Assembly (NCBI GenBank): GCA_963701125.1
Contig: OY969568.1
Location: forward strand, 2,895,504-2,959,503
DNA from: an uncultured Actinomycetes bacterium
GTDB taxonomy: Bacteria > Actinomycetota > Thermoleophilia > Gaiellales > JAICJC01
DNA: 64,000 nucleotides
Reading direction: 5' to 3'
In this document: positions 19,214 to 38,760 of the stretch, in pieces
How positions within the stretch are numbered: the stretch's first letter is position 1
Layout of the letters: the number at the start of each line of letters is the position of its first letter
Made by a program: the position numbers and the translations under genes
Notes under the pieces: generated by a model
Told to the model about the DNA's origin: nothing
Seen by the model: only the letters and a program-made list of their open reading frames with translations
Database searches by the model: none

Positions 19214-20819
19214 GCAGCGGTGTGCTCGGCCCGTCCGCGCGGGCGGAGGCGCTTCGGCGGATGCGCGGCGAGCGGTTCGACCTGCTCGTCGTGGGCGGCG
19301 GGATCACCGGTGTCGGCATCGCCCTGGACGCGGCCACCCGCGGCCTGCGGGTCGCGCTCGTCGAGGCGAACGACATCGCCTCGGGCACGTCCAGCCGCTC
19401 GAGCAAGCTGATCCACGGCGGCCTGCGCTATCTGGAGATGCTCGACTTCGGCCTCGTGCGCGAGGCGCTGCGCGAGCGGCGGCTGCTGCTCACCCGCCTG
19501 GCGCCGCATCTGGTGCGGCCCGTCCCGTTCCTGTTTCCGCTGCGCCACCGCGGCTGGGAGCGGCCGTACATGGGCGCCGGGCTGCTGCTCTACGACAGCA
19601 TGGGCGGCGCCCGCCACCTGCCTCGCGCGCGGCACCTGTCCAAGGCCGCGGCGCTGCGATCGGCGCCGGCGCTTCGACCGGACTCGCTCGTCGGCGCTGT
19701 GCGGTTCCACGACGCCCAGGAGGACGATGCCCGCTTCGCCGTCTACGTGGCGCGGACGGCCGCCGCCCACGGCGCTTCGATCGCCACCCGGGCCACGCTC
19801 ACCGCGTTCGTGCGCGACGAGGGCGGGCGCATCGCCGGCGCGGAGGTTCGCTGCGGCGAGGAGACGATCGCGGTGCGTGCCCGCCACACCGTGGCCGCCG
19901 TCGGCGTCGCCACCGACCGCGTGCTTGGGCTTGCGACCGGGCACGCCCACCACGAGCTGCGCCCGTCGAAGGGCATCCACCTGCTCGTCCCCAGGGACTG
20001 CATCCCGATGCGCACGGGCCTCTTCATGCGCACCGAGAAGAGCATCTTCCACGCGATCCCGTGGGGCGAGGATCACTGGCTGCTGGGCGACACCGACACC
20101 GAGTGGGACGGCGAGCCCGATGCCCCCGTGGCCAACCGCGCCGACATCGAGTACGTGCTCGGCAAGGTGAACAGCGTCCTTCGCAGCCCGGTGCGCGCCG
20201 ATCGGGTCTGCGGCGTCTATCGCCGGCCTGCGCCCGCTCGTCGCGGCCGCGGGCGCGGCCGCGACCACGCGGCTCTCGCGCGAGCACCGGCTGTTCGCAC
20301 CCGCGCCCGGCCTGACCGCGATCGCCGGCGGCAAGTACACCACCTACCGTGTGATGGCCCGCGATGCCGTCGACGCCGCCGCGCGCGACCTCGGCGGCGC
20401 GGTGCCCCCGTCGCGCACGCAGGACGTGCCGCTGCTCGGCGCCGGCGGCGACGGCGCCGAGGCGGAGCTCGCGGCGCTCGCCGCGGCGGAGCCCGAGCTC
20501 GCCCGCCCGCTCGCCGGCGCCGGACATCACGCCGCCGCCCGGGTCGTGCACGCGTGCACGCACGAGGGGGCGCTCGACCTCGACGACGTCCTCTCACGCC
20601 GCCTGCGCGTCTCGATCGAGGTGCCCGACCGCGGCCGCGCCGCCGCCGCCGCGGCCGCGCCGCTCGTCGCCCCGGTGCTCGGCTGGTCGGACGGTGCGCG
20701 CGGCCGACGAGGTCGCGCGCTACGTGCGTCTGCGCGATGCCGAGGCCGCGGCCGAGGCGGCTCCCGATGACACCACCGCGCGGGAGCGGTACCGTGCCGT
20801 GCTCGAAGGGAGCGCGTGA
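19210..20819 (+). pseudogene. glpD: glycerol-3-phosphate dehydrogenase GlpD, frame-disrupted (2 apparent +1 shifts near 20221 and 20692)
   Basis: FDLLVVGGGITGVGIALDAATRG ... SSRSSKLIHGGLRYLE in one frame. Continuation AGLRPLV...GGKYTTYRVMARDAVD in frame +1. C-terminus VRAADEVARYVRLRD...EGSA* in the next frame. Confidence 0.85.
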
Positions 20820-20895
20820 CGGCGAGCCTCGCAATCGACGGATTCGACCACCCGACCGTGCCGGTCGGCGCGTCGACCCGCGCCGGAGCGGCGGC

Positions 20896-21087
20896 GTGAG
20901 GCGGTTCTTCGCCTACATCCAGGCCAACCCGCTGGCCGTCTCGGCACCGTGCTTCCTGATCGTGATCGTGAACCTGACCCAGGGCGTGCGCAGCTGGTTC
21001 GGGCTCACGTTCGTGACGGTGTGGTTCGTGGGATCGCTCGCGTTCCACATCCGCCGCCGGCGCCGCGGCGGCCCCTGGTTCGTGTGA
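20896..21087 (+). CDS. small membrane protein (hypothetical)
   Basis: 63 aa from a GTG. Two hydrophobic spans (LAVSAPCFLIVIVNL, GLTFVTVWFVGSLAF). Weak evidence. Confidence 0.3.
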   Translation: MRRFFAYIQANPLAVSAPCFLIVIVNLTQGVRSWFGLTFVTVWFVGSLAFHIRRRRRGGPWFV

Positions 21088-21153
21088 TCAGCAGTCACCG
21101 ATCCGACACCGCTTCGTGACACGATCGCAACGGCCGGCTCCTATGCTGGTCTC

Positions 21154-21723: not shown

Positions 21724-21726
21724 AGG

Positions 21727-22912: not shown

Positions 22913-22938
22913 GCGGCAACGCTACACCCTGCCCGCTC

Positions 22939-22968: not shown

Positions 22969-23007
22969 GGACCTCGACCCGGACCATTGTCCAAATAGTT
23001 GCGTTTT

Positions 23008-23032
23008 GGTCTGGTATTCGGTACGGTCTGAC
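23008..23032 (+). promoter_or_regulatory. candidate operator region: direct GGTCTG repeats / GGTCTGAC box in the AT-richer BMC control region
   Basis: TTTTGGTCTGGTATTCGGTACGGTCTGACAC read directly, 10 nt upstream of the ATG at 23042. GTCTGAC recurs at 32998-33004 and 35401-35407. The GGTCT half-site is reminiscent of HutC-type (DasR-like) boxes. Confidence 0.3.
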
Positions 23033-23041
23033 ACGACGCCC

Positions 23042-24337
23042 ATGTACGACTACGGCTTCTTCTCCTACGAGTCGAAGGACGACTTCCTCGACCGGTCGCG
23101 GGAGTTCTGGAACCCCGACAAGACCGACTTCTGGCAGGACGCCGGCGTCGACCTCGTCATCGATCGCCGCGAGGGCTACTTCTTCTGGGACATGGCCGGC
23201 CGCCGCCTGATCGACCTGCACCTGAACGGCGGCACCTACAACCTCGGCCACCGCAATCCCGAGCTGATCGCGACGATTGAGCAGGCGATGCAGCGCTTCG
23301 ACATCGGCAACCACCACTTCCCGGCGCTCGCGCGCACCGCGCTGGCCGAGGCGCTCGTGAAGACCTGCCCGCCCGAACATGCGCCGCGTCGATCTACGGC
23401 GCGGGCGGCGGCGAGGCGACCGACATCGCGATCAAGACCGCCCGCCACACCCGCCAGCGGCGCAAGATCGTCTCGATCCTGAAGGGCTACCACGGCCACA
23501 CCGGCCTCGCGGTCGCGTCCGGCGACGACCGCTTCTCGAAGCTCTTCCTGTCCGATCGTCCCGACGAGTTCGTCCAGGTGCCGTTCAACGACCTCGACGC
23601 GATGGAGGCGGCGCTGCGCGACGGCGACGTCGCGGCGGTGCTGCTCGAGACGATCCCGGCCACCTACGGCTTCCCGCTGCCGCTGCCCGGCTACCTGCAG
23701 GGCGTGAAGCGGCTCTGCGAGCGCTATCGGCGCCCTCTACATCGCCGACGAGGTGCAGACCGGCCTGATGCGCACGGGCGAGATGTGGGGCATCACCAAG
23801 GCCGGCGTCGAGCCCGACATCATGGTCATCGGCAAGGGCATCACCGGCGGCATGTACCCGATCTCGTGCGTCGTCGTGTCGGAGGAGTGCTCGGCCTGGC
23901 TCAAGGAGGACGGCTTCGGCCACATCTCGACCGGCGGCGGCGCCGAGCTCGGCTGCATCGTCGCGCTCAAGGTGCTCGAGATCTGCGGCAGGCCCGAGGT
24001 GCGCTCGATGGTGCACTACATCTCCGACCGCTTCGGGCGCGGGCTGCGCGCGATCCAGGAGCTCTACCCGGACTGGTTCGTCGGCATCCGCCAGGACGGC
24101 GTCGTCATGGGCCTCGAGTTCGACCATCCGCAGGGCGCGAAGGTCGTCATGAAGCACCTGTACGAGAACGGCGTGTGGGCGATCTTCTCGACGCTCGACC
24201 CGCGCGTGCTCCAGTTCAAGCCGGGCATCCTGCTCGGCCCCGAGCTCGTCGACGAGGTGCTCGACCGCACCGAGGTCTCGATCGGCCAGGCGCTGCACGA
24301 GCTGCGCGGCGACCGCCCCGCGGTGGGGGCGCGATGA
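23042..24337 (+). pseudogene. class-III aminotransferase-fold enzyme (RMM-type amino-alcohol-phosphate phospholyase candidate), frame-disrupted (~3 shifts: ~23375, ~23391, ~23728)
   Basis: MYDYGFFSYESKDDFLDRSREFW...HLNGGTYNLGHRNPE...|NMRRV|IYGAGGGEATDIAIKTAR...YHGHTG...LLETIPATYGFPLP..YL..V..LCERY|GALYIADEVQTGLMRTGEMWG...VIGKGITGG. GKG is the PLP-lysine region. Confidence 0.85.
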
Positions 24338-25844
24338 GCGCCGCGGCGCCCGAGCCGGCCGGCGTCCCGCGCGCGCGGATGATGCTCCAGCGCGCCCACT
24401 GGGCGGCGACGGCGTTCGCCGGCTACGACCACGAGCGCACGCATCGGATCGTCGATCGCCGTCGCCGAGGAGGCATACCAAAACGCCCAAAGGTATGCCG
24501 AGTGGGCGGTGCGCGAGACCGGCATGGGCATCGTCGACCACAAGCGGCGCAAGAACGAGGCCTGCTCGAAGGGCCTGCTCGAGTGGTACGGCGGCGGCGA
24601 CTACGTGAGCGCGCGTATCGATCCGGAGGCGCGCATCGTCGAGCTGCCGCGGCCCGCCGGCGTCGTGCTCGCCCTGACGCCTTCGACGAACCCGATCGCG
24701 ACCGTCTACTTCAAGGTGCTGCTGGCGCTGATGACCCGAAACGCGGTCGTCGTCAGCCCGCATCCGCTCGCCCGCGAGGTGTCGCGCCGACGCCGCTCAC
24801 CTGCTCGCCCGGGCGGCCGTCGAGGCCGGCGCGCCCGACGGCTGCGTGCAGGTGGTCGAGGAGCCGACGATCCCGCTGATCGAGGCGCTGATGAGCGACC
24901 CGACCACCGACGTCATCCTCGCCACCGGCGGCGTCGCGGTCGTGCGCGCCGCCTACCGCTCGGGCAACCCGGCGATCGGCGTCGGGCCCGGCAACGTGCC
25001 CTGCCTCGTCGACCACACCGCCGACCTGGCCGCCGCCGCGGAGCGGCTGATGGACTCGAAGAGCTTCGACAACTCGATCCTGTGCACGAACGAGTCGTGC
25101 GTCATCGTCGAGGAGCGCTGCGCCGACGCGTTCGAGCGCGAGCTCGGCCGCCACGGCGGCCATGTGCTCTCGCCGGACGACGTACCGACGGTGCGCGAGA
25201 AGCTCTACCCCGACGGACGGCTGCGGATCGAGCTGATCGGCAAGGACGGCCGGCGCTCGCCGCCGAAGCCGGGATCCGGGTTCCGCCGAAGACGCGCGTG
25301 CTCGTGGCGCCGTTCGCGCTCGTCGTGCCCGAGGAGCCGCTGGCGCGCGAGAAGATGTTCCCGCTGCTCGGGCTCGTGCGCGTGCCCGACGCGCGCCGCG
25401 GCATCGACGCCGCCTGCGCCATGCTGCGGATCGGCGGCGCCGGGTCACTCGGCCGTGATCCACTCCCGCGATCCGCGCACGATCATGGCCTACGGGGCCG
25501 CCGTGAAGGTGCTGCGGGTGGCGGTGAACGTCGGCGGGAGCACCGGCTCGGCCGGCATCGACACGAACCTCGCCCCGACGATGACGATCGGCACCGGGTT
25601 CTACGGCCGCTCGTCGCTGGGCGAGAACCTGGAGCCGCGCCACCTGATCAACCTGACCCGGGTGGCGTACACGAACGACCCGTCCGAGCCGTTCGGCGAC
25701 TTCACCGGCCTCGAGCCGTGGAGCCGCCGCGCCGAGCCGCCGAGCCCGTCGCGGCGCGGCGCCCTGTCCGCCGACGCCGCGGACGCGCGCGACGAGATCC
25801 GCCGGATCGTGCTCGAGGAGCTGCGGGAGCTGGTGAAGCGCTGA
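24334..25844 (+). pseudogene. CoA-acylating aldehyde dehydrogenase (EutE/PduP-like) with C-terminal encapsulation-peptide-like helix, frame-disrupted (~4 shifts: ~24457, ~24785, ~25248, ~25445)
   Basis: AVRETGMGIVDHKRRKNE ... LALTPSTNPIATVYFKVL ... ILATGG..VV.AAY.SG.PAIGVGPGN ... SFDNSILCTNES (catalytic Cys region) ... GGSTGSAGIDTNLAPTMTIGTG. Tail: PPSPSRRG linker followed by [21 protein letters not shown]. Confidence 0.85.
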
Positions 25845-26452
25845 TGGCAGAGCTCCGGTCATTCATCTTCATCGACCAGCTGCAGCCGCAGACCATGTGC
25901 TACCTGGGCACCTGGATCCGCGGCCGGCTGCCGCGCACGAACATGGCCGCGCAGATCATCGAGATCGCGCCCGGCCTCGACATCGAGCCGCTGACCGACG
26001 TGGCGCTCAAGTCGACCGAGGTGCAGGCCGGCATCCTGGTCGTCGAGCGCCAGTTCGGCTACCTCGAGATCCACTCGCGCTCGACCGCCGAGGTGCACGC
26101 GGCGAGCGCCGCCGTGCTGGCCGCGCTCGGCGCCACGGCCGAGGACGCCACCCGGCCGCAGATCCTGGCGTCGGAGATGATCACCCGAACCTCGACCACC
26201 AGCACGCGTTCCTGATCAACCGCAACAAGCTCGGGTCGATGGCGCTGCCCGGCGAGTCGCTCTTCGTGCTCGAGATGCAGCCGGCGTCCTACGCGATCCT
26301 GGCGACGAACGAGGCCGAGAAGGCCGCCAACATCAAGGTGGTCGACTACCGCATGATCGGCGCCACCGGCCGCGTCTACCTGACCGGCATGGAGGCCGAC
26401 GTGCGCACCGCCGGCGACGCCGCGGTCGGCGGCGCTGGGAGGGGCGGTATGA
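25844..26452 (+). pseudogene. tandem BMC-domain shell protein (BMC-T-like) paralogue 1, frame-disrupted (~2 shifts: ~26187, ~26425)
   Basis: Two BMC-like halves: [40 protein letters not shown] and [47 protein letters not shown] junction with the ALDH gene. Restoring the frame gives a TGA overlapping the next ATG. Paralogue of 27678-28336. Confidence 0.7.
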
Positions 26453-27097
26453 GCACGCCCGACGACGCCGAGCTGCTGCGCAGCGTCACCCGCGAGGTGC
26501 TGGCCGACCTGCTGCCGGAGCTCCTGTCCGAGGCGCTGACTGCCAACGTCAATGGCCACAATGCTGCGAATGGGGACAGTCCCCATCCGGGGGCTGTCCC
26601 CGCTTCTCTGCCGCCGTCGACGCCAGGTGCCATCCCCCAGGTGCCGGGGCCGCCGATCGCCGCCGTGCACCGGCCGTCGGGCTGGCGTCCGCCGGCCGAG
26701 TCGGACACGACGACGACGCCGCCCCCCGCGGCCGCGGCGGCCTCCTGCGGCCCCGGATGCGACGGTCGAGCGGGTCGACCTGCGCAGCGACGCCGACCTC
26801 GACGCCTTCGTGCGCTCGCTGGTGCGGCGGCTCGAGAACCCGCGCGACCGCATGGCGATCCGCTCGGGCAAGCTGCGCTTCCGGCTTGCGTGCGACCGCC
26901 GCGGGTACGACCGGCCGCGCCGTCTTCGGCGCCCGTCATGCGGGTCGAGCAGCGGCGCCGTCACCGAGCGCACCGTGCGCGATGCGGCCGCCTCGGGCGC
27001 GCGGCTCGTGCTGGCCCGGCGGGCGGTGCTGACGCCGATGGCGCGCGATCGCGCGCGCAGCCTGGGAGTCGAGATCGAGAAGGAGCGGCCATGCTGA
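26449..27097 (+). pseudogene. BMC-associated protein of unknown function with N-terminal encapsulation-peptide-like helix, frame-disrupted (~4 +1 shifts)
   Basis: [30 protein letters not shown] (amphipathic), then a ~60-aa Pro/Ala/Thr linker, then [44 protein letters not shown]|...|VMRVEQ|[44 protein letters not shown]. Confidence 0.5.
26572..26609. repeat. palindromic element copy 3 (GGGGACAGTCCCC-ATCC-GGGGGCTGTCCCC-GCTTCTCT), in-frame inside the linker of the 26449 gene
   Basis: Read directly. The arms are 12/13 complementary. Translated as [12 protein letters not shown] within the Pro-rich linker. Confidence 0.7.
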
Positions 27098-27384
27098 GAG
27101 CGACCGTCACCGGCGCCGTCTGGGCGACCAAGCGCGATCGAGAACATCCCCGGCGGCGCCTTCCTCGAGGTCGAGGTGGACGGCGGCGGCGGGCGTGTCG
27201 TCGCCTTCGACGTGCTCGGCAGCGGCATCGGCGAGCGCGTGCTGGTTGCAACCGGCTCGGTCGCAAGCGGCTGGTTCGGCGACGTGCACCCCCCATCGAC
27301 GCTCTGATCATCGGATCCATCGACGAGCCCGCCGCGGCCGCACCGGCCCCGGCGCAAGCGCCTCCGCCGCACGGCGGGGCATGA
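27091..27384 (+). pseudogene. BMC-P pentamer/vertex protein (EutN/CcmL family), internal segment out of frame (compensating +1 near 27136 and -1 near 27290)
   Basis: [15 protein letters not shown]|[51 protein letters not shown]|[12 protein letters not shown]. The first and last parts are in the frame of track ORF 25897..27384, the middle is in frame +1. Confidence 0.8.
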
Positions 27385-27399
27385 ACCAAGGAGAGACGC

Positions 27400-27677
<278 letters not shown>

Positions 27678-27678
<1 letters not shown>

Positions 27679-28336
27679 TGCCCGACACGTCGACCGATAT
27701 CGCGGTGCAGCTGCGGGTGTACCTGCCGATCCCGAGCCTGGGCCGGCAGTTCGCCGCGTACCTGGGCACGCCCACGCGTGCCCGCGGCTACCCGCCGATC
27801 GAGGGCGACCACGCGCTGATCGTCGAGGTGGCGCCGGCGCTCGCGATCGAGCGCGTCACCGACCTCGCGCTGCGATCGGTGCCCGAGATCGAGCCGGGCA
27901 TCCTCTACGTCGAGCGCCAGTTCGGCGTGCTCGAGGTGCACCACCGCGACAAGGCGCTGGTCGACCGGGCCGGCGCGGCGATCCTCGAGGGCATCGGCGC
28001 GAAGCCCGCGGACGCCGCTGCGGCCACGTATCCTCTACGCCGACGTGATCGAGGACATCACCGACCAGCACGCCGTGATCATCAACCGCAACCGCGAGGC
28101 GTCGATGGTGCTGCCGGGCGAGACGCTGCTCGTCTACGAGGTGGTGCCGGCGCTGCTTCGCCGCCGTCGCGGCGAACGCCGCCGAGCGGGCGGCGCCCGA
28201 CGCCACGCTCGTCGACGGTCGTCGATGATCGGCGCGGCGGGGCGGATCTACATGAGCGGCGCCGACCGAGAGCGTCGTGCGGGCCCGCGACGAGATCACC
28301 GAGGTGCTCGCGTCGGTGGAGGGCCGTGAGCACTGA
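27678..28336 (+). pseudogene. tandem BMC-domain shell protein (BMC-T-like) paralogue 2, frame-disrupted (~4 shifts)
   Basis: LIVEVAPALAIERVTDLALRSVPEIEPGILYVERQFGVLEVH|LRPRILYADVIEDITDQHAVIINRNREASMVLPGETLLVYEVVPALL|AAVAANAAERAAPDATLVD..|MIGAAGRIYMSGAD|ESVVRARDEITEVLASVEGREH*. TAGTG junction with the BMC-H gene. Confidence 0.7.
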
Positions 28337-29318: not shown

Positions 29319-29323
29319 GGCGG

Positions 29324-29740: not shown

Positions 29741-30526
29741 ATGATGTTCACCCCACTCACCGGTCGCACCGTTCTCGTCACCGGCGGCACCAAGGGCATC
29801 GGCAAGGGCATCGCCGGTGAGTTCGCGGCGGCGGGCTGCAACGTGGCCCTGAACGGCCGCGGCGGGGACGCCGGCGAGGTCGCCGTGCGCGATCTCTCCG
29901 CCCGCGGCGGCAAGGTGTCGTTCGTGAAGGGCGACGTCGCCAGGGCCGAGGACTGCGAGCGGATCGCGGCCGAGGTGGCATCGCGCTACGGCGGCATCGA
30001 CATCGTGTGCGCGAACGCCGGCGTCTTCCCCGACGTGAAGCTCGCCGACATGACCGAGGACGACATCGACTCGATCTTCGCGACGAACGTGAAGGGCACG
30101 ATGCTGACCGTCAAGGCATGCCTGCCCTACCTGGAGGCGTCCGGCCACGGCCGCGTGATCCTGACGAGCTCGATCACCGGGCCCATCACCGGCTTTCCGG
30201 GCTGGTCGCACTACGGCGCGACCAAGGCGGCGCAGCTCGGCTTCCTGCGCACCGCCTGCATCGAGCTCGCTCCGAAGCGGATCACGGTCAACGCGGTGCT
30301 GCCGGGGAACGTCGAGTCCGAGGGCATGGACGAGCTCGGCCCCGAATATCGGGCGTCGATGGAAGCCTCGATCCCGCTCGGCCGGCTCGGCTATCCGTCG
30401 GAGATCGGCGCGGCGGCGGTGTTCCTCGCGACCGACGAGGCGGGGTACATCACCGGCCAGACGATCGTCGTCGACGGCGGCCAGGTGCAGCCGGAGTCGG
30501 TGGCTGCGCTGCAGGCGGCGCAGTAG
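29741..30526 (+). CDS. short-chain dehydrogenase/reductase (candidate aminoacetone / 1-amino-2-propanol dehydrogenase)
   Basis: 261 aa. TGGTKGIG cofactor motif, NAG, catalytic S...YGATK. Intact. Its position matches the SDR of RMM loci. Confidence 0.9.
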
Positions 30527-30540
30527 AGGCGAGCGGCGCC

Positions 30541-31338
30541 GTGACCGAGCCTGTCCCCGGCCTGCCGGCCGCGTTCGCGCCCCTCGGGCCGTCCGCGTCG
30601 GCGCTGCGCGACCGGCTGCTCGCGACGATCGCGGGCGGCGAGCCCGGCCCGGGCGAGCGTCTCGGCGCCGAGCGCGAACTGGCCGCCCGGCTCGGGGTGA
30701 GTCGATCGACACTGCGTTCGGCGCTCGACGCGCTCGAGACGGCAGGCATCGTTCGGCGCGTGCGCGGACGCTCGGGCGGCATCTTCGTCTCGGAGCGGCG
30801 GGTCGAGCGCGACCTGACGAGCCTCACCGGCCTGCCGGCATATCTGCGCCGCCAGGGCTTCCAGTCGGGCGCGCGCGTGCTCTCGACGGCCACGGTGGGG
30901 GCCGACGCCGAGACGGCCGCCGCGCTCGGCGTGCCGGAGGGCTCGCTCGTGCTCGAGGTCGTGCGCGTGCGCCTCGCAGACGAGCAGCCGATCTCGCTCG
31001 AGCGGGCGCGCTTTCCCGCCGACCGCTTCCCCGGCCTGCTCGACCAGTCGCTCGCCGGATCGCTGTATGACCTGCTCGAGAGCGGCTACGGCCTGCGTCC
31101 GAGCGAGGCCGAGGAGCGGGTCGAGGTGGTCGGCGCCACGGCGGCCGAGGCGCGCGTGCTCGAGGTGCGCGCCGGCGACCCGCTGGTCGCGATCGTCCGC
31201 ACGGCGTGGTCGGAGGACGGGCGCGCATTCGAGCGCTCGCACGACCTCTTCCGGGCCGACCGCGTCCGCATCGTCACGCGCGTGCGCACGCGCGACCCCT
31301 CGGCGCTCGGAAACTCGGTCGAGGTGGTCGGGGTCTAG
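30541..31338 (+). CDS. GntR family transcriptional regulator, HutC subfamily (wHTH + UTRA)
   Basis: ERLGAERELAARLGVSRSTLRSALDALETAGIVRRVRGRSGGIFV wHTH. C-terminal UTRA-like region. Intact. Confidence 0.9.
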   Translation: MTEPVPGLPAAFAPLGPSASALRDRLLATIAGGEPGPGERLGAERELAARLGVSRSTLRSALDALETAGIVRRVRGRSGGIFVSERRVERDLTSLTGLPAYLRRQGFQSGARVLSTATVGADAETAAALGVPEGSLVLEVVRVRLADEQPISLERARFPADRFPGLLDQSLAGSLYDLLESGYGLRPSEAEERVEVVGATAAEARVLEVRAGDPLVAIVRTAWSEDGRAFERSHDLFRADRVRIVTRVRTRDPSALGNSVEVVGV

Positions 31339-31340
31339 GT

Positions 31341-31537: not shown

Positions 31538-32491
31538 ATGGCCGAGCACCTGATCACGCGCGACGCCCCCACCCACCGCCGCTGGGACGTGGACATCGAG
31601 CCGGTGGTGCGCATCCGGTCGGGCGACACGGTCACCGCCGAGACCGACGACTTCGCCGGCGGCCAGGTCACGCGCGACTCGACCGCCGCAGACCTGCCCG
31701 ACCTGGACTTCGGCATGATCTACCCGCTGGCCGGGCCGATCCACGTCGAGGGCGCCGAGCCGGGCGACGCCTGGCGATCGAGTTCCTCGAGTTCGAGCTG
31801 CCGGAGTGGGGGTGGGCATGCATCATCCCGGGGTTCGGCCTGCTGCCCGCCGGGCGAGTTCACCGAGCCGTACATCAAGTTCTTCGACCTGACCGGCGGC
31901 AGCACGATGGCGTTCGCGCCGGGCGTGCGGCTGCCGATCGAGCCGTTCTGCGGCACGACCGGGGTGCCGGGCGCAGGGATGCACGGCGTGCCGATCCCGC
32001 CGCCGCACGCCGGCGGCGGCAACATCGACCTGCGCCATCTCACCAGGGGCACGACGCTCTACCTGCCGGTCGGAGTCCCCGGCGCGCTGGTCTCGCTCGG
32101 CGACGCCCACGCAGCCCAGGGCGACGGCGAGGTGGCGATCTCCGGCGTCGAGTGCGCCATGCGCACGACGATGCGCATCTCGGTCGCGCGGGGCATGCAC
32201 CTGCGCGCCCCCGCGCTTCGGCGGCCTGCCGGCTCGCTCACGCCGCGGGTCGACGGCGGCGGCTGGTTCGCGACGACCGGCGTCGAGCCCGATCTGATGG
32301 AGGCGGCCCGCTCGGCGGTGCGCGCGATGATCGAGCATCTCGTCGCCGAGCGCGGTCTTTCACGTGACGACGCGTACATGTTCTGCTCCCTCGCGGGCGA
32401 TCTGAAGATCACCGAGGTCGTGGATGCGCCAAACTGGATCGTCGGCTGCTTCATGCCCGACGCGGTGTTCACCGACGAGGAGGACGGCTGA
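31538..32491 (+). CDS. acetamidase/formamidase family amidohydrolase; ORF open, but ~28 internal codons appear out of frame (compensating -1 near 31768 and +1 near 31852)
   Basis: 317 aa. FmdA/AmdA-like motifs (GPI.V.GAEPGD ... GGN.D ... LGDAHAAQGDGEV). The segment read as WRSSSSSSSCRSGGGHASSRGSACCPP reads as LAIEFLEFELPEWGWACIIPGFGLLPA in the neighbouring frame. Confidence 0.8.
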   Translation: MAEHLITRDAPTHRRWDVDIEPVVRIRSGDTVTAETDDFAGGQVTRDSTAADLPDLDFGMIYPLAGPIHVEGAEPGDAWRSSSSSSSCRSGGGHASSRGSACCPPGEFTEPYIKFFDLTGGSTMAFAPGVRLPIEPFCGTTGVPGAGMHGVPIPPPHAGGGNIDLRHLTRGTTLYLPVGVPGALVSLGDAHAAQGDGEVAISGVECAMRTTMRISVARGMHLRAPALRRPAGSLTPRVDGGGWFATTGVEPDLMEAARSAVRAMIEHLVAERGLSRDDAYMFCSLAGDLKITEVVDAPNWIVGCFMPDAVFTDEEDG

Positions 32492-32938
32492 TGCACGAGC
32501 TTCAGATGCGCGAGTCCCTTGAGCGGCTGGCAGAGACCGACGGCGGCAGGCGGCTGCTGCAGCTCTCGCTGCGCAGCATCGAGGCCGGCGACCACGACCT
32601 GGTGTCGGGCTGCTGGACGCGCAAGGGCGACGCGGGCTGCCTGTTCCAGCACGCCTACTGGCAGGGCGTCGCCGACGGCGTCTTCGCCGACGACGGCCGC
32701 GCCCGCGACTGGGTGAGCGGCGTCGCCGGGCCGCAGGCCTTCCACCGCGTGATCGACGTGATCGCGGCGTTCGACCGGCTCGCCCGGGCCGAGTATGCGG
32801 TCGGCAAGCGCCGGTTCGGGCCGCCCGAGCTCGATCAGGCAGCGCTGGCGCGAGCACGTCGCGGCGCTGCTGGTCGAGGTGCTCGGCGGCAGCGGCGACC
32901 GCGCGGCGGTCGGCGCGGTGCCTGCGTTGACGGCGTAG
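32491..32938 (+). pseudogene. hypothetical protein, probable +1 shift near 32843
   Basis: TGATG junction with the amidase gene. MHELQMRESLERLAETDGG...AFDRLARAEYAVGKRRFGPPELDQAA, then the plausible continuation WREHVAALLVEVLGGSGDRAAVGAVPALTA* in the next frame. No family recognised. Confidence 0.4.
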
Positions 32939-32996
32939 ATCGCTCCCAGGGCTTGACCTGGCCGCGCCGTAAATGGTACAAACGGCGCGAGCAACC

Positions 32997-33005
32997 TGTC
33001 TGACA
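32997..33005. promoter_or_regulatory. palindrome TGTCTGACA upstream of the permease gene (candidate operator)
   Basis: Perfect 9-nt palindrome. Followed at 33021-33032 by TGTC-CCGA-GACA. A TTGACC ... TGGTACAAA promoter-like pair lies at ~32953-32982. Confidence 0.3.
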
Positions 33006-33051
33006 ACTTCGGGATCCAATCTGTCCCGAGACACCTGAGGGAGGTGGTCGA

Positions 33052-34638
33052 ATGAGCAGTGAAGGCGGCGGCATGCACGAGCATCACGAGGGCATGCTTC
33101 CCGTGGTCGATAGCGTCGATGTCTCGACTCGCACAGACGTGCACAAGCTGCACGGCGGCGCTGTGGGCCTTTGGGGGGTGCTGTTCCTCACGGTCACGGG
33201 GTCCGCCCCGATCTCGGCGATGCTCTTCAACACCCCCATCTCGATGGGATACGGGAACGGCATCGGCACGCCTGCGGGCTTCCTCGTCGCCACGGTCGTT
33301 CTCACGATCTTCTCGGTCGGGTACGTCGCCATGTCACGCAAGGTGACCGCCGCCGGCGGCTTCTACAGCTTCATCAGCCACGGCCTCGGGCGCGAGCTGG
33401 GAATGGCGTCCGGCCTTGCCATGGTGGCCGCATACTCCGTGTTCGAGGTATCGCTGGTCGGCGGCTTCTCGTACTTCGCGACGTTGAAGCTGGCCCAGTA
33501 CGGCTATCACGTGTCCTGGTACTGGCCCGGCCTCTTCATGATCGGGCTGATCTCGGTGCTCGCCTTCTTCGACGTGCACATCTCGGCCCGCGCCCTCGGC
33601 ATCGCGCTGATCGGCGAGATCATCCTGCTGGTGATCTTCGACGCGGTCGTGTTCGGCCATGGCGGCAGCAACATCCAGGCCGGCGCGATCAACCCGATCA
33701 ACGCGTTCAAGGGCCTCGGCGCGAGCGGTCACGGAGGCTCGGCGGTCGCCGCCGGCGCAGCCGGGATCGGCATCTTCTTCGCCTTCTGGTCGTGGGTCGG
33801 CTTCGAGATGGCCCCGAACTACGGCGAGGAGTCGAAGAACCCCAAGAAGATCGTGCCACGGGCCATGTACATCTCCGTGATCGGCCTGGGGATCTTCTAC
33901 ACGATCACCTCTTGGGCGGCGATCTCCGGGTATGCCAGCACCGCCGCGGCGGCGCACATCGCCCAGACCGACGGGGCCGACTTCTTCTTCATTCCCGCCA
34001 GGCAGTTCGGGAACGAGTTCCTGAAGGACGCCCTGAGCTACTTCATCATCACCGGGTCGTTCGCCTGCGGCATGGCGTTCCACAACACGACCGCGCGCTA
34101 CTTCTACTCGCTGGGACGCGAGGGCGTGCTGCCGCGATCGCTGGGGCGGACGCACGAGCGGCACCGCAGCCCGCACATCGCGTCGATCACCCAGTCGGTG
34201 ATCGCCGTCCTGATCGTGGTCGCCTTCGTGGCCTTCGCCCATGTGGCGAAGGGCTCGAACGCCGCCAACGACGTCGCCTACCTGCAGGTGTACGGACTGA
34301 TGGCGGTGATGGGAGTGGTCTCGATCCTGGCGATTCAGGCTCTCGTCTCGATCGCGATCCTGAACTACTTCCGGACGCACCACGCCGCCGACCACCACTG
34401 GTGGACGACGCTCACTGCGCCGATCATCGCTGCGGTGACGCAGCTGTATGTGCTCTACCTGGCGATCGACAACCTCAGCTTCCTCGGTGCCGGCTACTCG
34501 TACGCCAAGTGGCTCGTGTGGGGAGACGTGGTCATCTTCGCCGGCGGCTCGGTCTACGCCTTCTATCTGAAGTCAAGCAACCGGGCCAAGTACGAGACCA
34601 TCGGCCGCATGATCAACGAAGGTCTCGACCACGCCTGA
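33052..34638 (+). CDS. APC-superfamily amino acid/amine permease
   Basis: 528 aa, about 12-13 TM, GSAPIS..., F.SW.GFE motifs. Intact. A permease is a standard RMM-locus component. Confidence 0.9.
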   Translation: MSSEGGGMHEHHEGMLPVVDSVDVSTRTDVHKLHGGAVGLWGVLFLTVTGSAPISAMLFNTPISMGYGNGIGTPAGFLVATVVLTIFSVGYVAMSRKVTAAGGFYSFISHGLGRELGMASGLAMVAAYSVFEVSLVGGFSYFATLKLAQYGYHVSWYWPGLFMIGLISVLAFFDVHISARALGIALIGEIILLVIFDAVVFGHGGSNIQAGAINPINAFKGLGASGHGGSAVAAGAAGIGIFFAFWSWVGFEMAPNYGEESKNPKKIVPRAMYISVIGLGIFYTITSWAAISGYASTAAAAHIAQTDGADFFFIPARQFGNEFLKDALSYFIITGSFACGMAFHNTTARYFYSLGREGVLPRSLGRTHERHRSPHIASITQSVIAVLIVVAFVAFAHVAKGSNAANDVAYLQVYGLMAVMGVVSILAIQALVSIAILNYFRTHHAADHHWWTTLTAPIIAAVTQLYVLYLAIDNLSFLGAGYSYAKWLVWGDVVIFAGGSVYAFYLKSSNRAKYETIGRMINEGLDHA

Positions 34639-35378: not shown

Positions 35379-35428
35379 CGGTATGATAAAGGCTTCGAAG
35401 GTCTGACGTGCGACGAGGGAGGTCGGCG

Positions 35429-36490
35429 GTGCGAGCAGCGATCTGGGACGGCCCGGGCACGATGTCTCTGGGGTCGGTGCCTGACGCCGTCTGCCCCGAG
35501 GACGGCGCCCTCGTGCGGGTGACGGCGTGCGGGATCTGCGGCACGGACGTGCGCACGTTCTACAACGGCGACCGCCGCATCTCGCCGCCGTGGGTGCTCG
35601 GCCACGAGATCAGCGGCGAGCTGATCGAGATCGGCCCGCGCGCCGCCGACGAGGTGGGCGCGATCGGCCTTACGGCCGGCGACCTCGTCCACTGCATCTC
35701 GACGCTCTGGTGCGGTCGCTGCCGCCTGTGCCGAAGCGGCAACGAGCACCTGTGCGGCAACGGCGAGCCTGATGGGCTTCGACTATCAGGGCGCCTACGC
35801 CGAGCTCGTCGCCATCCCCCAGGTCGCGCTCAAGAACCTGTTTCGCGATCCCCGAGGGGCTCTCCGACGTCCACGCCACCTTCGCCGACCCGCTATCCGA
35901 CGCGATCTGCGGCCACAAGGACATCGCCATCGGCCTCGACGACACCGTCGCGGTGATCGGCGCCGGGCCGGTGGGGACGGCCCACGCGGCCATCGCCCGG
36001 CTCGAAGGCGCCGGCCGCGTGCTCCTGATCGAGACGGCCGCGCCGCGCCTCGAGCTCGCCCACGCGATCCTCGGCGACGACCGCATGGCCTACGTCGACA
36101 CGTCGGACGCCGACGGCATCGCCGCGGTGCGCGCGGCCACCGACGACATCGGCGCCGACGTCGTGATCGTGGCGTGCTCGAGCGACAAGGCCCAGGAGCA
36201 GGCGATGGAGATGGCCGCGCCGCGCGGGCGGGTGCTGTTCTTCGGCGGCCTCCCGAAGGGCACGACCCACATCAACTTCCCGTCGAACGTGCTGCACTAC
36301 CGCGAGGTGCAGGTGCACGGCTCCTACGCCTCGCGCCACCGCGACCAGGTGCACGCGCTCGACATGCTCGCCGCCGACATCGGCGGCATCCGGCGGCGTC
36401 GTCTCGGACGTCGTCGAGCTCGACGACGCGCCGGCGGCCTTCGGCCGGATCCGGGCGGGCGAGGTGCTCAAGGTCGTCGTCACGCCGTAG
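35429..36490 (+). pseudogene. zinc-dependent medium-chain alcohol/polyol dehydrogenase, frame-disrupted (3 +1 shifts: ~35768, ~35845, ~36390)
   Basis: VRAAIWDG...CGICGTDV...GHE.SGE...C..C..C..G..HLC.NGE|LMGFDYQGAYAELV...|...GLSDVHATFADPLS...VAVIGAGPVGTAH...|VVSDVVELDDAPAAFGRIRAGEVLKVVVTP*. Confidence 0.8.
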
Positions 36491-37248
36491 GACGGCGACT
36501 GCCTCGTCCGCCGCTCGCTGCGCCACTCGATCGCCGACGGGCTGCGCGAGCGGGTGGTGGCGGGCGAGTTTCGGCCTGGCGACCGGCTGCCCGGCGAGCC
36601 GGAGCTCGCCCGCAGCCTCGGCGTCTCGCGCAGCTCGCTGCGGGCGGCGATCACACTGCTCGAGGAGGACGGGCTGCGTGCGGCGGCTGCACGGGTCGGG
36701 CACCTACGTCACCGACCGCCCGCTCGCTGCGCAACGACCTCAGCCGCAACTTCGGCGTCTCGTCGATGATCGCCTCGATGGGGCTCGAGCCGGGCACGGT
36801 CGACGAGACCTGCGCCGCCGAGCCCGCGACGGCCGAGGTGGCGGCCGCCCTGGGCGTGCTCGACGGGCGACGCCGACGAGCGCCCTTCGGCGCGTGCGCA
36901 CTGCCGGCGGCCGGCGCGTCGTCGACCAGACCGACTGGTGCCGCGCCGACGTGCTCACCCCGGCGGCGATGGCCGAGGCGGCGGCCGGATCGGTGTACGC
37001 CGCGCTCGCACGAGCGCGGCCTCGCGGTGCACCACGGCGTCGCGACAATCTCGCCGGACATGGCGATGGGCGAGGTGGCGCGGCGCCTGGGCGTCCCCCG
37101 CGGGACGCTGCTGATGACGATGTGGCAGGTGGACTCGACGGCCGACGGCGCCGTGGTGCTCGTCTCGCGCGAGCACCACCTGGCGGACGCATTCGAGATC
37201 ACCGTCTACCGGCGCGGGCCGGGCGACGGGGGGGAGGACGAGCGATGA
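36491..37248 (+). pseudogene. GntR/HutC-type regulator (wHTH + UTRA), frame-disrupted (~5 +1 shifts); start not determined
   Basis: SLRHSIADGLRERVVAGEFRPGDRLPGEPELARSLGVSRSSLRAAITLLEEDGL|VRRLHGSGTYVTDRP|LRNDLSRNFGVSSMIASMGLEPGT...|...|LRRVRTAGGRRVVDQTDWCRADVL...|...GVATISPDMAMGEVARRLGVPRGTLLMTMWQVD. Confidence 0.7.
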
Positions 37249-38760
37249 GCGAGGACATGGTCGTCGGCGTCGACGTCGGCTCGCAGGGGACGTGTGCCCA
37301 GGCGATCGCGGCCGACGGCACCCATGCCGCGACGAGCTACGTGCCGCATACGCTCTCCTACCCCGAGCCGGGATGGGCCGAGCAGGACGCGCATGAGTGG
37401 CTCGGAGCCGTCGCCCAGGCGCTGTCGGAGCTGCGGCGCGAGCTCCCCGGCCGGCCGTTCCGGGCGATCTCGTTCGGCTCGCAGCTCGACGGGCTCGTGC
37501 CCGCCGGTGCCGCCGGTGAGCCGCTCGGCCCGGCGCTCATCTGGATGGACCGCCGGGCCGGCGCGGAGTGCGACGCGGCCGCCGGGCGGATCGATCCGGC
37601 CCGCCTGCGCGAGCTGACGGGCTGCAACCTCGATCCGGGGCACGTCGCCGCGAAGATCGCGTGGCTCGCCGCCCACCGCGCCGGCCAGCACGCCGCCGCC
37701 CGCTGGTTCATGCTGCCCGGCTCCTACGTCGCCTGGCGGGCCTCGGGCGAGGTCGCCGTCGACCCGTCGAATGCCTCGTCGTCGATGCTGCTCGGGGTCG
37801 CAGTCGGGCGACTGGTCGCAGGAGGCGTGCGCCGCCTTCGGGATCGACCCCGCGAAGCTCCCGCCCGTGCGGCCGGCCGACAGCGTGCTCGGCCCGGTGG
37901 CGCCGTGGCTGCGCGATGCCGCCGGCCTCGACCCGGCGACGCTGGTCGTCCTCGGCTGCGGCGACGAGATGGCGGCGACCCTCGGCGCGGGCGTCGTCGA
38001 TCCGGGGGCGGTGTGCGACGTGATGGGCACCGCCGAGCCCGTCTGCGCCGTCGCCCCGGCGCCGGCGCTCGATCCCGACGCGGTCACCGAGCTGCATCCG
38101 CACGCGGTGCCGGGCGGCTGGCTGCTCGAGAACCCGGGCTGGCTCTCGGGCGGCGCCTATCGCTGGTTCCGCGACGAGCTCGGCTCGGTCGAGGCCGCGC
38201 GGGCGGCCGCCACCGGCGCCGACGTCTACGAGCTCCTGAACGACCTGGCTGCCGGTGTGCCCGCGGGCGCCGACGGCATCCTGTGGGTGCCCGCGCTTGC
38301 GGGGGCGATGGCGCCGGAGTGGAACGCCGATGCCCGCGCGGGCTGGTTCGGGCTGACCGCGGCACACGGCCGCGCCCACATGGCCCGCGCGCTGCTCGAG
38401 GGCAACGCCTATGCGCTGCGCGACGTGCTCGAGGCGATGGGCGCGGCGGGCCTCGACGCAACCGAGCTCGTGTGCGTCGCGGGCGGCGCGAAGGGCGACC
38501 TCCTGCGCCAGATCCGCGCCGACGTGACCGGCCTGCCGGTGACGCGGCCCGAAGATGTCGAGACGACCGCCCGTGGTGCGGCGATGCTGGCCGCGTCGGG
38601 CGCCGGCCTGCACCCCGATGCGCGCAGCGCGGCGCTCGCGATGGCCGGCCCGCGGGTCGAGCCCGTGTACCCCGACCCGGAGCGGCGCGCGCTCTACGAC
38701 GGCCTGCACCGCCGCCACCGCGACCTCTACGCGGCGCTTCGTCCACTCTTTACGGCATGA
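37245..38760 (+). pseudogene. FGGY-family carbohydrate kinase (xylulokinase-like), one +1 shift near 37800
   Basis: MVVGVDVGSQGTCAQAI...PGWAEQDAHEW...IWMDRRA...|SGDWSQEACAAFGID...LGCGDEMAATLGAG...GGAKGDLLRQIRADVTG.PV...E.TARGAAMLA. Confidence 0.8.

What the first reader, a model, noticed from the sequence alone, without database searches (positions are those of the whole stretch)
20200..37850. 17.6-kb block with ~54 single-base frame disruptions, ~4:1 biased to +1, bounded by clean flanks
Seen by stitching conserved protein segments across the six-frame track.

Shifts per gene:

| Gene | Shifts |
|---|---|
| DAO oxidoreductase | ~14 |
| APH kinase | 6 |
| GntR no. 2 | ~5 |
| ALDH | 4 |
| unknown BMC protein | 4 |
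| BMC-T2 | 4 |
| aminotransferase | 3 |
| ADH | 3 |
| glpD | 2 |
| BMC-T1 | 2 |
| BMC-P | 2 |
| amidase | 2 |
| 32491 ORF | 1 |
| TIM-barrel gene | 1 |
| FGGY kinase | 1 |

- The frame moves forward by one in about 44 cases and back by one in about 10. In the kinase, ADH, GntR no. 2, the unknown protein and glpD every shift is +1.
- Many sites are compatible with length changes in G or C runs, for example GCCGGGCGAG where GCCGGCGAG is expected, and a run of 6 C where 7 restores the frame. Exact positions cannot be fixed by eye.
- No gene in 0-20.2 kb or 37.9-64 kb needs a shift.
- Inside the block the permease (1587 nt), SDR plus GntR (1.6 kb), BMC-H, DUF4232-like gene and lipoprotein are intact, so the density is patchy.

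Inference: the reconstructed frames keep all catalytic and cofactor motifs and contain no stop codons. That would be unexpected after enough time to accumulate 14 indels in one gene. An insertion-biased consensus or polishing artefact is therefore more likely than true decay. If the shifts are real, the organism carries a recently and massively inactivated BMC regulon, which would be remarkable.
Basis: partly seen in the sequence, partly recalled or inferred. Interest (0 to 1): 0.65.

Follow-up and report, generated by a model that had tools for sequence, protein, structure and literature searches.

The report
Assembly indel errors, not gene decay
A 17.6-kb stretch of this deposited genome carries about 57 stray one- or two-base insertions and deletions that break 15 otherwise healthy genes; the evidence points to a consensus error in a long-contig assembly, not to a dying microcompartment gene cluster.

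Summary
Frameshift-aware alignment to intact orthologues finds 57 coding frame disruptions between 20220 and 37801: about 47 of +1, 4-5 of +2 and 6 of -1. None occurs in the flanks that could be tested.

- After the stray bases are removed, about 4,700 codons hold no stop codon.
- dN/dS against orthologues is 0.14-0.17, the same as between two intact orthologues (0.15).
- Window-private amino-acid changes are no more frequent than in the flank (3.7% against 3.6%).
- The repaired oxidase is exactly 390 aa and keeps 144 of 146 invariant columns.
- The insertion:deletion ratio of 8.5 is the opposite of real bacterial pseudogenes (about 0.76).
- The block begins inside glpD and ends inside a sugar kinase gene, so it is not the BMC regulon.
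- A read-derived contig from public run ERR11594399 matches 1,165 nt of the block exactly, except that it lacks the window's extra C at 20692. It also carries an open oxidase gene.

69% differ from both neighbouring bases.

The shifts are in the deposited 4.28-Mb contig itself. Underneath lies an ordinary, intact RMM1-type microcompartment locus.

The parts
20220..37801 (.). Error-rich block: 57 coding frame disruptions, of which about 51 add bases and 6 remove a base. All are 1-2 nt.
   Evidence: 3-way DNA alignment, four-reference event calling, frameshift-aware protein alignment, edge checks.
19210..20860 (+). glpD-type glycerol-3-phosphate dehydrogenase (DAO + DAO_C). The first 1 kb is clean, then +1 at 20220 and +1 at 20692. 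The left edge of the block lies inside this gene.
   Evidence: The extra C at 20692 is absent from Logan contig L084.
21181..21723 (+). DUF4232 protein, intact.
   Evidence: Pfam. The exact product is also encoded on Logan contig L084.
21730..22902 (-). FAD oxidoreductase (DAO family, sarcosine-oxidase-beta-like) with 18 indels: 14 of +1, 1 of +2 and 3 of -1. The repaired product is 390 aa.
23006..24337 (+). Class-III aminotransferase, the RMM signature enzyme. +1 at 23372, 23392 and 23728.
24334..25844 (+). Aldehyde dehydrogenase. +1 at 24457, 24785 and 25442; -1 at 25250.
25844..26452 (+). BMC-T shell protein no. 1 (CsoS1D_N + BMC). +2 at 26187, +1 at 26428.
26449..27097 (+). Unknown BMC-associated protein with no Pfam match, carrying 4 shifts: +1 at 26891, 26913 and 26953, plus a fourth placed at 26764 (+1) against one orthologue and at 26738 (-2) against another.
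   Evidence: The public record calls a chimeric 381-aa ORF here (P0265).
27091..27336 (+). BMC-P vertex protein (EutN_CcmL). +1 at 27136, -1 at 27289. End coordinate approximate.
27400..27678 (+). BMC-H shell protein, intact.
27678..28336 (+). BMC-T shell protein no. 2. +1 at 28017, 28156 and 28264; +2 at about 28215.
28326..29318 (+). APH-family kinase (amino-alcohol kinase type). Six +1 events at 28344, 28393, 28454, 28617, 28879 and 28991.
29324..29686 (-). Small lipoprotein of 120 aa, intact.
29744..31338 (+). Short-chain dehydrogenase (29744-30526) and GntR/UTRA regulator no. 1 (30541-31338), both intact.
31538..32491 (+). Acetamidase/formamidase-family amidase. A compensating pair (-1 at 31771, +1 at 31846) garbles about 25 codons.
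32491..33003 (+). Unknown ORF (150 aa in the orthologue). +1 at about 32840.
33052..34638 (+). Amino-acid permease, intact. It is 97% nt identical to JGI contig L081.
34684..35376 (-). TIM-barrel-like protein (weak NanE/His_biosynth matches). +1 at about 34974-34978; +2 at 35363 near its start.
35426..36490 (+). Zn-dependent alcohol dehydrogenase. +1 at 35766, about 35846 and about 36393.
36494..37248 (+). GntR/UTRA regulator no. 2. +1 at 36677, 36726 and 37008; +2 at about 36869.
37245..38760 (+). FGGY-family sugar kinase. A single +1 at 37800, then 960 nt clean. The right edge of the block lies inside this gene.

Best explanation
The frame disruptions are consensus errors in a deposited long-contig assembly. 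The source is a 4,277,331-bp contig held by NCBI and ENA, most probably a long-read metagenome-assembled genome. The errors are confined to about 17.6-18 kb. The organism's real sequence here is an intact RMM1-type (amino-alcohol/aminoacetone) microcompartment locus with its neighbouring genes.

Shown:
- The stray bases are private to the window and absent from every relative.
- They are almost all 1-2-nt insertions placed without regard to sequence context, homopolymers, codon phase or gene boundaries.
- Removing them restores full-length, stop-free, normally constrained genes.
- They are present in the public record itself.
- A read-derived contig from a public run lacks the one insertion that it tests against an otherwise identical background.

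Inferred: why one block is affected. Three causes are possible and may combine.
(a) A stretch that escaped the polishing step which cleaned the rest of the contig. The span of 17.6-18.2 kb equals two 9-kb strides of a polisher working in 10-kb chunks with 1-kb overlap. Those chunk sizes are Medaka's defaults as I remember them.
(b) Very low read depth over the length of one or a few long reads.
(c) A pile-up that mixes reads from closely related strains. The worst-hit gene is also the one where a second allele, 5.5% divergent, is documented.
For: 1. Polarity and count. There are 57 coding events, 51 adding bases and 6 removing a base. All are absent from L001, L002, L081, L082 and P0250, whose genes are intact.

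2. No decay signature.
- 0 stop codons in about 4,700 repaired codons.
- dN/dS is 0.144 and 0.170 for window against orthologue, and 0.151 for orthologue against orthologue. Flank values are 0.18.
- There are 70 window-private amino-acid changes in indel-bearing genes, against 69.6 expected from the flank rate.
- The repaired oxidase is 390 aa, like its homologues (nearly all of the best 120, most of them exactly 390 aa). It differs at only 2 of the 146 columns that are invariant in 92 homologues, and both lie beside repaired sites.

3. Spectrum.
- The insertion:deletion ratio is 8.5, against 0.76 in 696 indels of real bacterial pseudogenes (PMC6054270). P = 3e-13.
- Every event is 1-2 nt.
- 69% of insertions differ from both neighbours.
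- There is no motif at the sites.
- 9 of 46 insertions sit unambiguously between codon positions 1 and 2, about what random placement predicts.

4. Geometry. The edges fall inside glpD and inside an FGGY kinase gene. There are no repeats at the edges.

5. Independent sequence.
- Logan contig L083 from run ERR11594399 matches the right flank with 1 mismatch in 1,976 nt and no indel.
- Logan contig L084 from the same run matches 20604-21768 exactly, apart from lacking the extra C at 20692.
- L084 also carries an open oxidase ORF (408 aa, running to the contig end) with none of the window's indels.

6. The shifts are in the deposited record. Its own gene call P0265 is a chimeric 381-aa ORF identical to window 26239-27381.

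7. Precedent.
- Collapsing nearby allelic variants is reported to introduce indel errors and false frameshifts in long-read assemblies (PMC8445201).
- The closest relatives L001 and L002 come from a Nanopore-only project (Flye, one round of Medaka) in which low-coverage contigs are expected (PMC12313526).
Against: - No reads could be mapped, so depth and per-site support are unknown.
- Across the oxidase gene, L084 differs from the window by 68 substitutions. There it represents another allele, so it does not directly contradict the window's indels in that gene. Only the insertion at 20692 is tested on an identical background, and even that could be a private mutation of a minor strain.
- The error spectrum is not the textbook one for Nanopore, where homopolymer deletions and substitutions dominate. 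I could not establish the sequencing technology or pipeline of the source.
- Two clean stretches inside the block (29.3-31.5 kb and 33.0-34.9 kb) rule out a single uniform error rate.
- Five of the six error-free genes inside the block that I looked up were not found in the Logan assembly, so most of the block remains unchecked against independent sequence.
Confidence: 0.9

Rival explanations
1. The frameshifts are real. The sequenced strain has very recently lost about 15 genes, including the microcompartment locus, through a burst of single-base insertions.
For: - The indels are in the deposited record.
- A divergent oxidase allele shows that more than one strain exists, so the intact Logan allele could belong to a different strain.
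- A LigD primase-polymerase gene, which belongs to an insertion-prone end-joining system, lies nearby at 47147-48163.
Against: - 57 indels come with no detectable excess of substitutions, no stop codon and an unchanged dN/dS.
- From my own knowledge, base substitutions outnumber indels several-fold in bacterial mutation spectra. On that basis 57 indels imply hundreds of neutral substitutions and roughly 10-25 nonsense codons.
- Real bacterial pseudogenes show a deletion bias and a wide range of indel sizes, not an 8.5:1 excess of 1-2-nt insertions.
- 18 independent hits in one 1.2-kb gene that is already dead serve no purpose.
- The block edges lie inside unrelated genes.
- The extra C at 20692 is the only difference in 1,165 nt from a read-derived contig.
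Confidence: 0.05
2. The errors are homopolymer-length miscalls in G/C runs, typical of Nanopore, 454 or Ion Torrent consensus. This is the specific form the first reader suggested.
For: A few sites fit. The C-run at 27288 is one example, and the insertions at 22103, 23372, 28392 and 31846 lie in C runs.
Against: - Only 6 of 52 clean insertions lie in runs of 3 or more, and 36 of 52 differ from both neighbours.
- That is at or above the singleton share expected for a randomly chosen base inserted at a random place, which is 47-55%.
- 40% of the inserted bases are A or T, in DNA that is 28% A+T.
- There is no sequence motif at the sites.
Confidence: 0.03
3. Programmed recoding: ribosomal frameshifting or transcriptional slippage restores the frames in vivo.
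For: None beyond the fact that the repaired frames are intact.
Against: - All orthologues encode the same proteins in single frames.
- The sites share no slippery motif.
- Up to 18 shifts occur in one gene.
- Insertions also fall where compensating pairs garble 16-25 codons.
Confidence: 0.005
4. The window was corrupted after download, so the indels are not in the public sequence.
For: The insertions look random in both base and position.
Against: A protein predicted from the public 4,277,331-bp contig (P0265) is the frame-shifted chimeric ORF. It is 100% identical to window 26239-27381 across three of the insertion sites.
Confidence: 0.005

Closest known systems
Gene-fragmenting indel errors in long-read assemblies, including false frameshifts from collapsed alleles (PMC8445201; detection tools such as Kastor, PMC12007338)
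   Same: - Private 1-2-nt indels split ORFs that are intact in every relative.
- The repaired frames are normal.
- Substitutions are not elevated.
- The deposited gene calls are truncated or chimeric.
   Different: - The errors are confined to one sharply bounded block of about 18 kb, in a contig whose tested flanks are clean.
- They are about 90% insertions and avoid homopolymers, which is not the usual Nanopore pattern.
Genuine bacterial pseudogene decay (indel patterns in PMC6054270)
   Same: Several frameshifts per gene across neighbouring genes.
   Different: - No stop codons, no rise in dN/dS and no excess of private substitutions.
- Insertion:deletion ratio of 8.5 instead of about 0.76.
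- All events are 1-2 nt.
- The edges lie inside genes.
RMM1-type bacterial microcompartment locus (Rhodococcus and Mycobacterium microcompartment; Axen et al. 2014, PMC4207490)
   Same: The repaired locus encodes a class-III aminotransferase, an aldehyde dehydrogenase, BMC-H, two BMC-T and BMC-P shell proteins, an APH phosphotransferase, a short-chain dehydrogenase, a GntR regulator, a hydrolase (amidase) and an amino-acid permease. It has no diol dehydratase.
   Different: - The host is a 72% G+C actinobacterium whose relatives are labelled Gaiellales, Solirubrobacteraceae or Actinomycetes MAGs, not Mycobacterium or Rhodococcus.
- The neighbourhood adds a DAO oxidase, a Zn-ADH, a second GntR regulator and an FGGY kinase.

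Membership tests
Assembly or consensus indel artefact | The indels are private to the assembly and absent from all relatives. | tested here: met
   Absent from L001, L002, L081, L082 and P0250.
Assembly or consensus indel artefact | Removing the indels restores full-length, stop-free genes under normal constraint. | tested here: met
   0 stops. dN/dS 0.14-0.17 against 0.15. Private amino-acid changes 70 against 69.6 expected. Oxidase is 390 aa with 144 of 146 invariant columns kept.
Assembly or consensus indel artefact | Independent reads or assemblies of the same population lack the indels. | tested here: inconclusive
   Logan contig L084 lacks the C at 20692 on an otherwise identical 1,165 nt and has an open oxidase gene. 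Its oxidase allele is 5.5% divergent, however, and the rest of the block could not be retrieved.
Assembly or consensus indel artefact | Abnormal read depth, mixed pile-up or a skipped polishing interval over the block. | not testable with these tools
   No reads or assembly logs are available. The block span of 17.6-18.2 kb is only suggestive.
Genuine pseudogenes or genome decay | Neutral substitutions and nonsense codons accompany the frameshifts. | tested here: not met
Genuine pseudogenes or genome decay | Indel spectrum with deletions at least as common as insertions, and a range of sizes. | tested here: not met
   51 insertions against 6 deletions, all 1-2 nt. P = 3e-13 against the pseudogene ratio.
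Homopolymer-type sequencing error | Indels lie in mononucleotide runs. | tested here: not met
   36 of 52 are singletons and 6 of 52 lie in runs of 3 or more.
Programmed frameshifting or slippage | Conserved shift site with a slippery motif, shared by orthologues. | tested here: not met
   Orthologues are in single frames. No motif at the sites.
RMM1 microcompartment locus | [quoted passage not shown] | tested here: met
   PF00936 in the window. CsoS1D_N/BMC and EutN_CcmL in the syntenic orthologues that align to window 25844-28336.
RMM1 microcompartment locus | Class-III aminotransferase as signature enzyme, plus an aldehyde dehydrogenase core. | tested here: met
   Aminotran_3 and Aldedh fragments in the window. 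Full-length alignment to orthologues.
RMM1 microcompartment locus | Ancillary phosphotransferase, short-chain dehydrogenase, GntR regulator, amino-acid permease and hydrolase, with no diol dehydratase (PMC4207490). | tested here: met
   APH, AA_permease and FmdA_AmdA match in the window itself. adh_short and GntR/UTRA are precomputed Pfam hits on the syntenic orthologues L081 and L082, to which window 29698-31338 aligns full-length with no frameshift inside either called gene. No diol dehydratase appears in the window ORFs scanned or in the orthologue gene calls. Definition taken.
RMM1 microcompartment locus | A compartment is formed and amino-alcohol is catabolised. | not testable with these tools
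   Needs experiment.

The most novel reading that the evidence does not exclude
The insertions are real. On this reading an unknown, insertion-prone process wrote about 55 context-free single bases into one 17.6-kb tract of a living actinobacterium. It would have happened so recently that no substitution has followed. Candidates include long-tract error-prone repair synthesis, or end-joining by the LigD polymerase encoded nearby. The result would be the silencing of an RMM microcompartment locus and its neighbours in one strain of a mixed population.
Probability: 0.03. Interest if true: 0.85.

Novelty: not a real feature. Interest (0 to 1): 0.1.

Why it matters
The value is mainly for data quality. 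A public 4.28-Mb contig carries an 18-kb stretch in which 15 genes are falsely broken, and its gene calls there are chimeric or truncated (for example P0265). Any survey of pseudogenes, microcompartment loci or metabolic potential that uses this genome would wrongly score an intact RMM1 locus as lost.

The case also gives a checklist for separating artefact from decay without reads:
- stop codons in the repaired frames;
- dN/dS;
- private substitutions;
- insertion:deletion ratio;
- homopolymer context;
- codon phase;
- position of the block edges relative to genes.

It also shows that localised, insertion-only, context-free error blocks can hide inside otherwise clean long contigs. If the shifts were real after all, they would point to an unknown regional insertion mutagenesis.

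Tried and rejected
1. **Looking for the same strain elsewhere.**
- The genome-contig scan found only relatives at 91% BMC-H amino-acid identity or less.
- Protein searches with the permease and the repaired oxidase found nothing closer than 98% and 93% amino-acid identity.

2. **Exact-product look-ups to pull read-derived (Logan) contigs across the block.**
- Not found: permease, BMC-H, GntR no. 1, SDR, the lipoprotein, the 429-aa flank gene, the 807-aa flank gene and P0265.
- Found: only the DUF4232 gene and the 623-aa flank gene.

3. **A concatenated query of three poorly conserved repaired proteins**, intended to fish out Logan proteins, returned only 3 hits, none useful.

4. **'SNP doubling' hypothesis** (both alleles of a strain polymorphism written side by side). 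It is rejected as the sole cause. 9 of 46 insertions sit unambiguously between codon positions 1 and 2 of conserved codons. In the oxidase gene only about half the insertions, by my hand count and about what chance predicts, lie within 4 nt of a difference from the second allele.

5. **Methylation or sequence-motif hypothesis.** There is no enrichment around the 51 sites.

6. **Repeat-mediated misassembly at the block edges.** There are no repeats, only the 67%-identical BMC-T paralogues inside the block.

7. **A single raw long read as the patch.** This is mildly disfavoured, because no excess of substitutions is seen, but it is not excluded.

8. **Identifying run ERR11594399 or the source contig in the literature.** There are no text hits and no supplementary tables are held.

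9. **The first 3-way MAFFT alignment with globalpair** timed out and was rerun with a faster mode.

Full report
**What the window is.** It is actinobacterial DNA of about 72% G+C. Pfam places fragments of a class-III aminotransferase, an aldehyde dehydrogenase and an APH kinase in 23.7-29.3 kb. [quoted passage not shown] The aminotransferase, dehydrogenase and kinase ORFs each cover only part of their profiles. A GC3 frame plot shows the coding frame hopping repeatedly between 20 and 38 kb.

**References.**
- A scan of species-representative genomes with BMC-H returned two fully syntenic loci, L001 and L002. Both are MAGs labelled Actinomycetes, 80-92% nt identical to the window over 17.3-37.8 kb.
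- A protein search with the permease led to two more syntenic contigs with gene calls. L081 is from a JGI metagenome and L082 from an ENA/NCBI assembly. They reach window position 43.6 kb.
- In all four relatives every gene of the region is a single open frame.

**Checking the observation.**
- Over collinear stretches the window is 56 and 63 nt longer than L002 and L001.
- A 3-way alignment shows 64 frameshifting runs of window-only bases against 12 window-only gaps. This count includes poorly aligned non-coding stretches.
- tblastn shows orthologous proteins matching the window in successive frames.
- I then wrote a frameshift-aware protein-to-DNA dynamic programme.

Frameshift events per gene from that programme:

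| Gene | Events |
|---|---|
| DAO oxidase | 15 to 16 (18 with a compensated +1/-1 pair seen at DNA level) |
| APH kinase | 6 |
| ALDH | 4 |
| Unknown BMC protein | 4 |
| BMC-T2 | 4 |
| GntR no. 2 | 4 |
| Aminotransferase | 3 |
| Zn-ADH | 3 |
| glpD | 2 |
| BMC-T1 | 2 |
| BMC-P | 2 |
| Amidase | 2 |
| 32491 ORF | 1 |
| TIM-barrel-like gene | 1 |
| FGGY kinase | 1 |
| BMC-H, SDR, GntR no. 1, permease | 0 |
| DUF4232 coding sequence | 0 |

- The total is 57: about 47 of +1, 4-5 of +2 and 6 of -1.
- The first event is the T at 20220 and the last is at 37800/37801.
- No event occurs in the orthologue-covered flanks 16.6-20.2 kb and 37.8-42.4 kb, where 12 and 15 would be expected.
- The rest of both flanks is tiled by long ORFs. 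Where a Pfam family matches, the profile is generally covered end to end in one frame.

**Where the block sits.**
- The left edge is 1 kb into a glpD-type gene (DAO + DAO_C) that follows a glycerol kinase gene.
- The right edge is a third of the way into another FGGY kinase gene.
- The block therefore does not coincide with the microcompartment locus or with any operon.
- No repeats mark its edges.

**Nature of the events (unless stated).**
- Of 52 cleanly placed 1-bp insertions, 36 differ from both neighbouring bases, 10 make a run of two and 6 lie in runs of three or four.
- A random base at a random place would be a singleton 47-55% of the time. The insertions therefore do not favour homopolymers and if anything avoid them.
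- The inserted bases are C16, G15, T11 and A10. This fits either a uniform draw or the local composition.
- The flanking positions show no motif.
- Trial deletion of each base around each site shows that 9 of 46 insertions sit unambiguously between codon positions 1 and 2. Most of the rest are ambiguous around position 3. Random placement predicts this pattern.
- The process is therefore context-free, blind to codons and almost purely insertional.

**Is there any sign of decay? No.**
- The repaired frames contain no stop codon.
- Nei-Gojobori dN/dS of the repaired window genes is 0.144 against L081 and 0.170 against L082. L081 against L082 gives 0.151 for the same genes, and the flank genes give 0.18.
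- Amino-acid changes private to the window, at sites where L081 and L082 agree, number 70 in 1,914 sites of the indel-bearing genes. The flank rate predicts 69.6.
- The oxidase, hit 18 times in 1.2 kb, repairs to exactly 390 aa. Nearly all of its best 120 database homologues align over their full length, and most are 390 aa.
- The repaired oxidase departs from 92 homologues at only 2 of 146 invariant columns. Both lie next to repaired sites.
- Real bacterial pseudogenes show 300 insertions to 396 deletions with a wide range of sizes (PMC6054270). 51 of 57 being insertions has P = 3e-13 under that ratio.
- From my own knowledge of bacterial mutation spectra, substitutions outnumber indels several-fold. 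On that basis 57 real indels should be accompanied by hundreds of neutral substitutions and some 10-25 nonsense codons. None is seen.

**Provenance and independent sequence.**
- The permease and a 623-aa flank protein are, residue for residue, products of a 4,277,331-bp contig held by NCBI and ENA.
- A protein of that same contig, P0265, is a 381-aa chimeric ORF. It is 100% identical to window 26239-27381 read straight through three insertion sites. The shifts are therefore in the deposited record and were not introduced later.
- The Logan assembly of public run ERR11594399 contains contig L083, which equals window 42357-44332 with one mismatch and no indel.
- It also contains contig L084, which covers window 20604-22962.
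- Over 20604-21768 L084 is identical to the window except that it lacks the extra C at 20692, one of the two glpD frameshifts.
- From 21769 onward L084 differs by 68 substitutions, enriched at third codon positions (13, 15 and 39 by position; dN/dS 0.27). It has none of the window's indels, and its oxidase ORF is open for 408 aa to the contig end.
- L084 therefore carries a second, intact oxidase allele. It is 93% identical in protein to the repaired window allele and 98% identical to a JGI protein.
- This is direct evidence against the insertion at 20692. For the oxidase gene it is only indirect.
- Other error-free genes of the block were not found in the Logan assembly, so the rest of the block could not be checked this way.

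**Mechanism: what is shown and what is inferred.**
- Shown: a sharply bounded block of about 17.6-18.2 kb with context-free insertions at 2.6 per kb, rising to 15 per kb in the oxidase gene.
- Also shown: two clean stretches at 29.3-31.5 kb and 33.0-34.9 kb, and no measurable excess of substitutions.
- Inferred: the block is a stretch whose consensus was built or polished differently from the rest of the contig.
- Possible cause 1: a polishing gap. Two 9-kb strides of a 10-kb-chunk polisher give 18 kb. Those chunk sizes come from my own memory of Medaka defaults.
- Possible cause 2: depth of only a few long reads.
- Possible cause 3: a pile-up mixing related strains. The densest errors coincide with the one place where a second allele, 5.5% divergent, is documented. 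Collapsing nearby allelic variants is a reported source of false indels (PMC8445201).
- The nearest relatives L001 and L002 are Nanopore-only MAGs made with Flye and one round of Medaka (PMC12313526). A 4.28-Mb unannotated ENA/NCBI contig would fit that project, but I could not confirm this.
- The insertion-dominated, non-homopolymer spectrum is not the classical Nanopore pattern. The platform remains an open point.

**What is really encoded.** With the stray bases removed, 23.0-34.6 kb is an RMM1-type microcompartment locus as defined by Axen et al. (PMC4207490). It contains:
- a class-III aminotransferase;
- an aldehyde dehydrogenase;
- BMC-T, an unknown protein, BMC-P, BMC-H and a second BMC-T;
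- an APH kinase;
- a short-chain dehydrogenase;
- a GntR regulator;
- an amidase;
- an amino-acid permease.

There is no diol dehydratase. A DAO oxidase lies upstream. A TIM-barrel-like gene, a Zn-ADH, a second GntR regulator and an FGGY kinase lie downstream. It is an ordinary member of a known kind, in a Gaiellales/Solirubrobacterales-like host.

**Verdict.** The artefact interpretation is supported with about 0.9 confidence. The homopolymer detail and the 'BMC regulon' framing are not supported. The finding is not a biological feature. Its value is as a data-quality flag and as a worked example of telling artefact from decay without reads.

Noticed in passing
window 33000-34500 (permease gene): The permease is 97% nt identical to JGI contig L081, while the genes on either side are 84-92% identical (dS 0.12 against 0.3-0.4). 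This looks like a recent transfer or recombination of this one gene between lineages. It is also one of the two error-free stretches of the block.
   Followed up: partly
window 20604-22962 against L084 (Logan contig of run ERR11594399): The two sequences are identical for 1,165 nt. From 21769 on, just inside the 3' end of the oxidase gene (its stop codon is at about 21730), they abruptly become 5.5% divergent across the gene (68 substitutions, dN/dS 0.27). This is an allele mosaic that suggests recombination between co-existing or closely related strains.
   Followed up: partly
window 26239-27381: The public record's own gene call (P0265, 381 aa) reads through three insertion sites. It fuses the end of BMC-T1, the unknown protein and out-of-frame Arg/Ala-rich sequence into one false protein that carries a BMC Pfam hit.
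   Followed up: yes
window 21180: An extra A just before the DUF4232 start codon looked like a window-specific insertion against L001 and L002. It is present in the Logan contig too, so it is a genuine lineage difference. Intergenic calls from distant references should not be counted as errors.
   Followed up: yes
window 47147-48163: A LigD primase-polymerase domain gene (non-homologous end joining) lies 9 kb right of the block. There is no evidence linking it to the indels.
   Followed up: no
window 14819-17242, 61807-62976 and 9720-10634: Amine-catabolism genes surround the locus: a DAO-GCV_T fusion (dimethylglycine/sarcosine dehydrogenase type), a second GCV_T protein and a choline/ethanolamine-kinase-like APH protein.
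   Followed up: no
L082 7210-8304 and L002 about 13900-15000, against window 31330-31520: L002 and L082 carry an extra gene of about 1.1 kb between GntR no. 1 and the amidase (Peptidase_M29 in L082). The window, L001 and L081 lack it.
   Followed up: no
window 1199-2305: A bacterial RCC1-repeat (beta-propeller) protein with six repeats. This is an uncommon domain in bacteria.
   Followed up: no
window 25720-25760 (3' end of the ALDH gene): There are three further +1 calls within 32 nt against L081 but not against L082, in an Ala/Pro-rich linker. They may be more errors or a real 3-nt difference. They are not counted in the total.
   Followed up: partly
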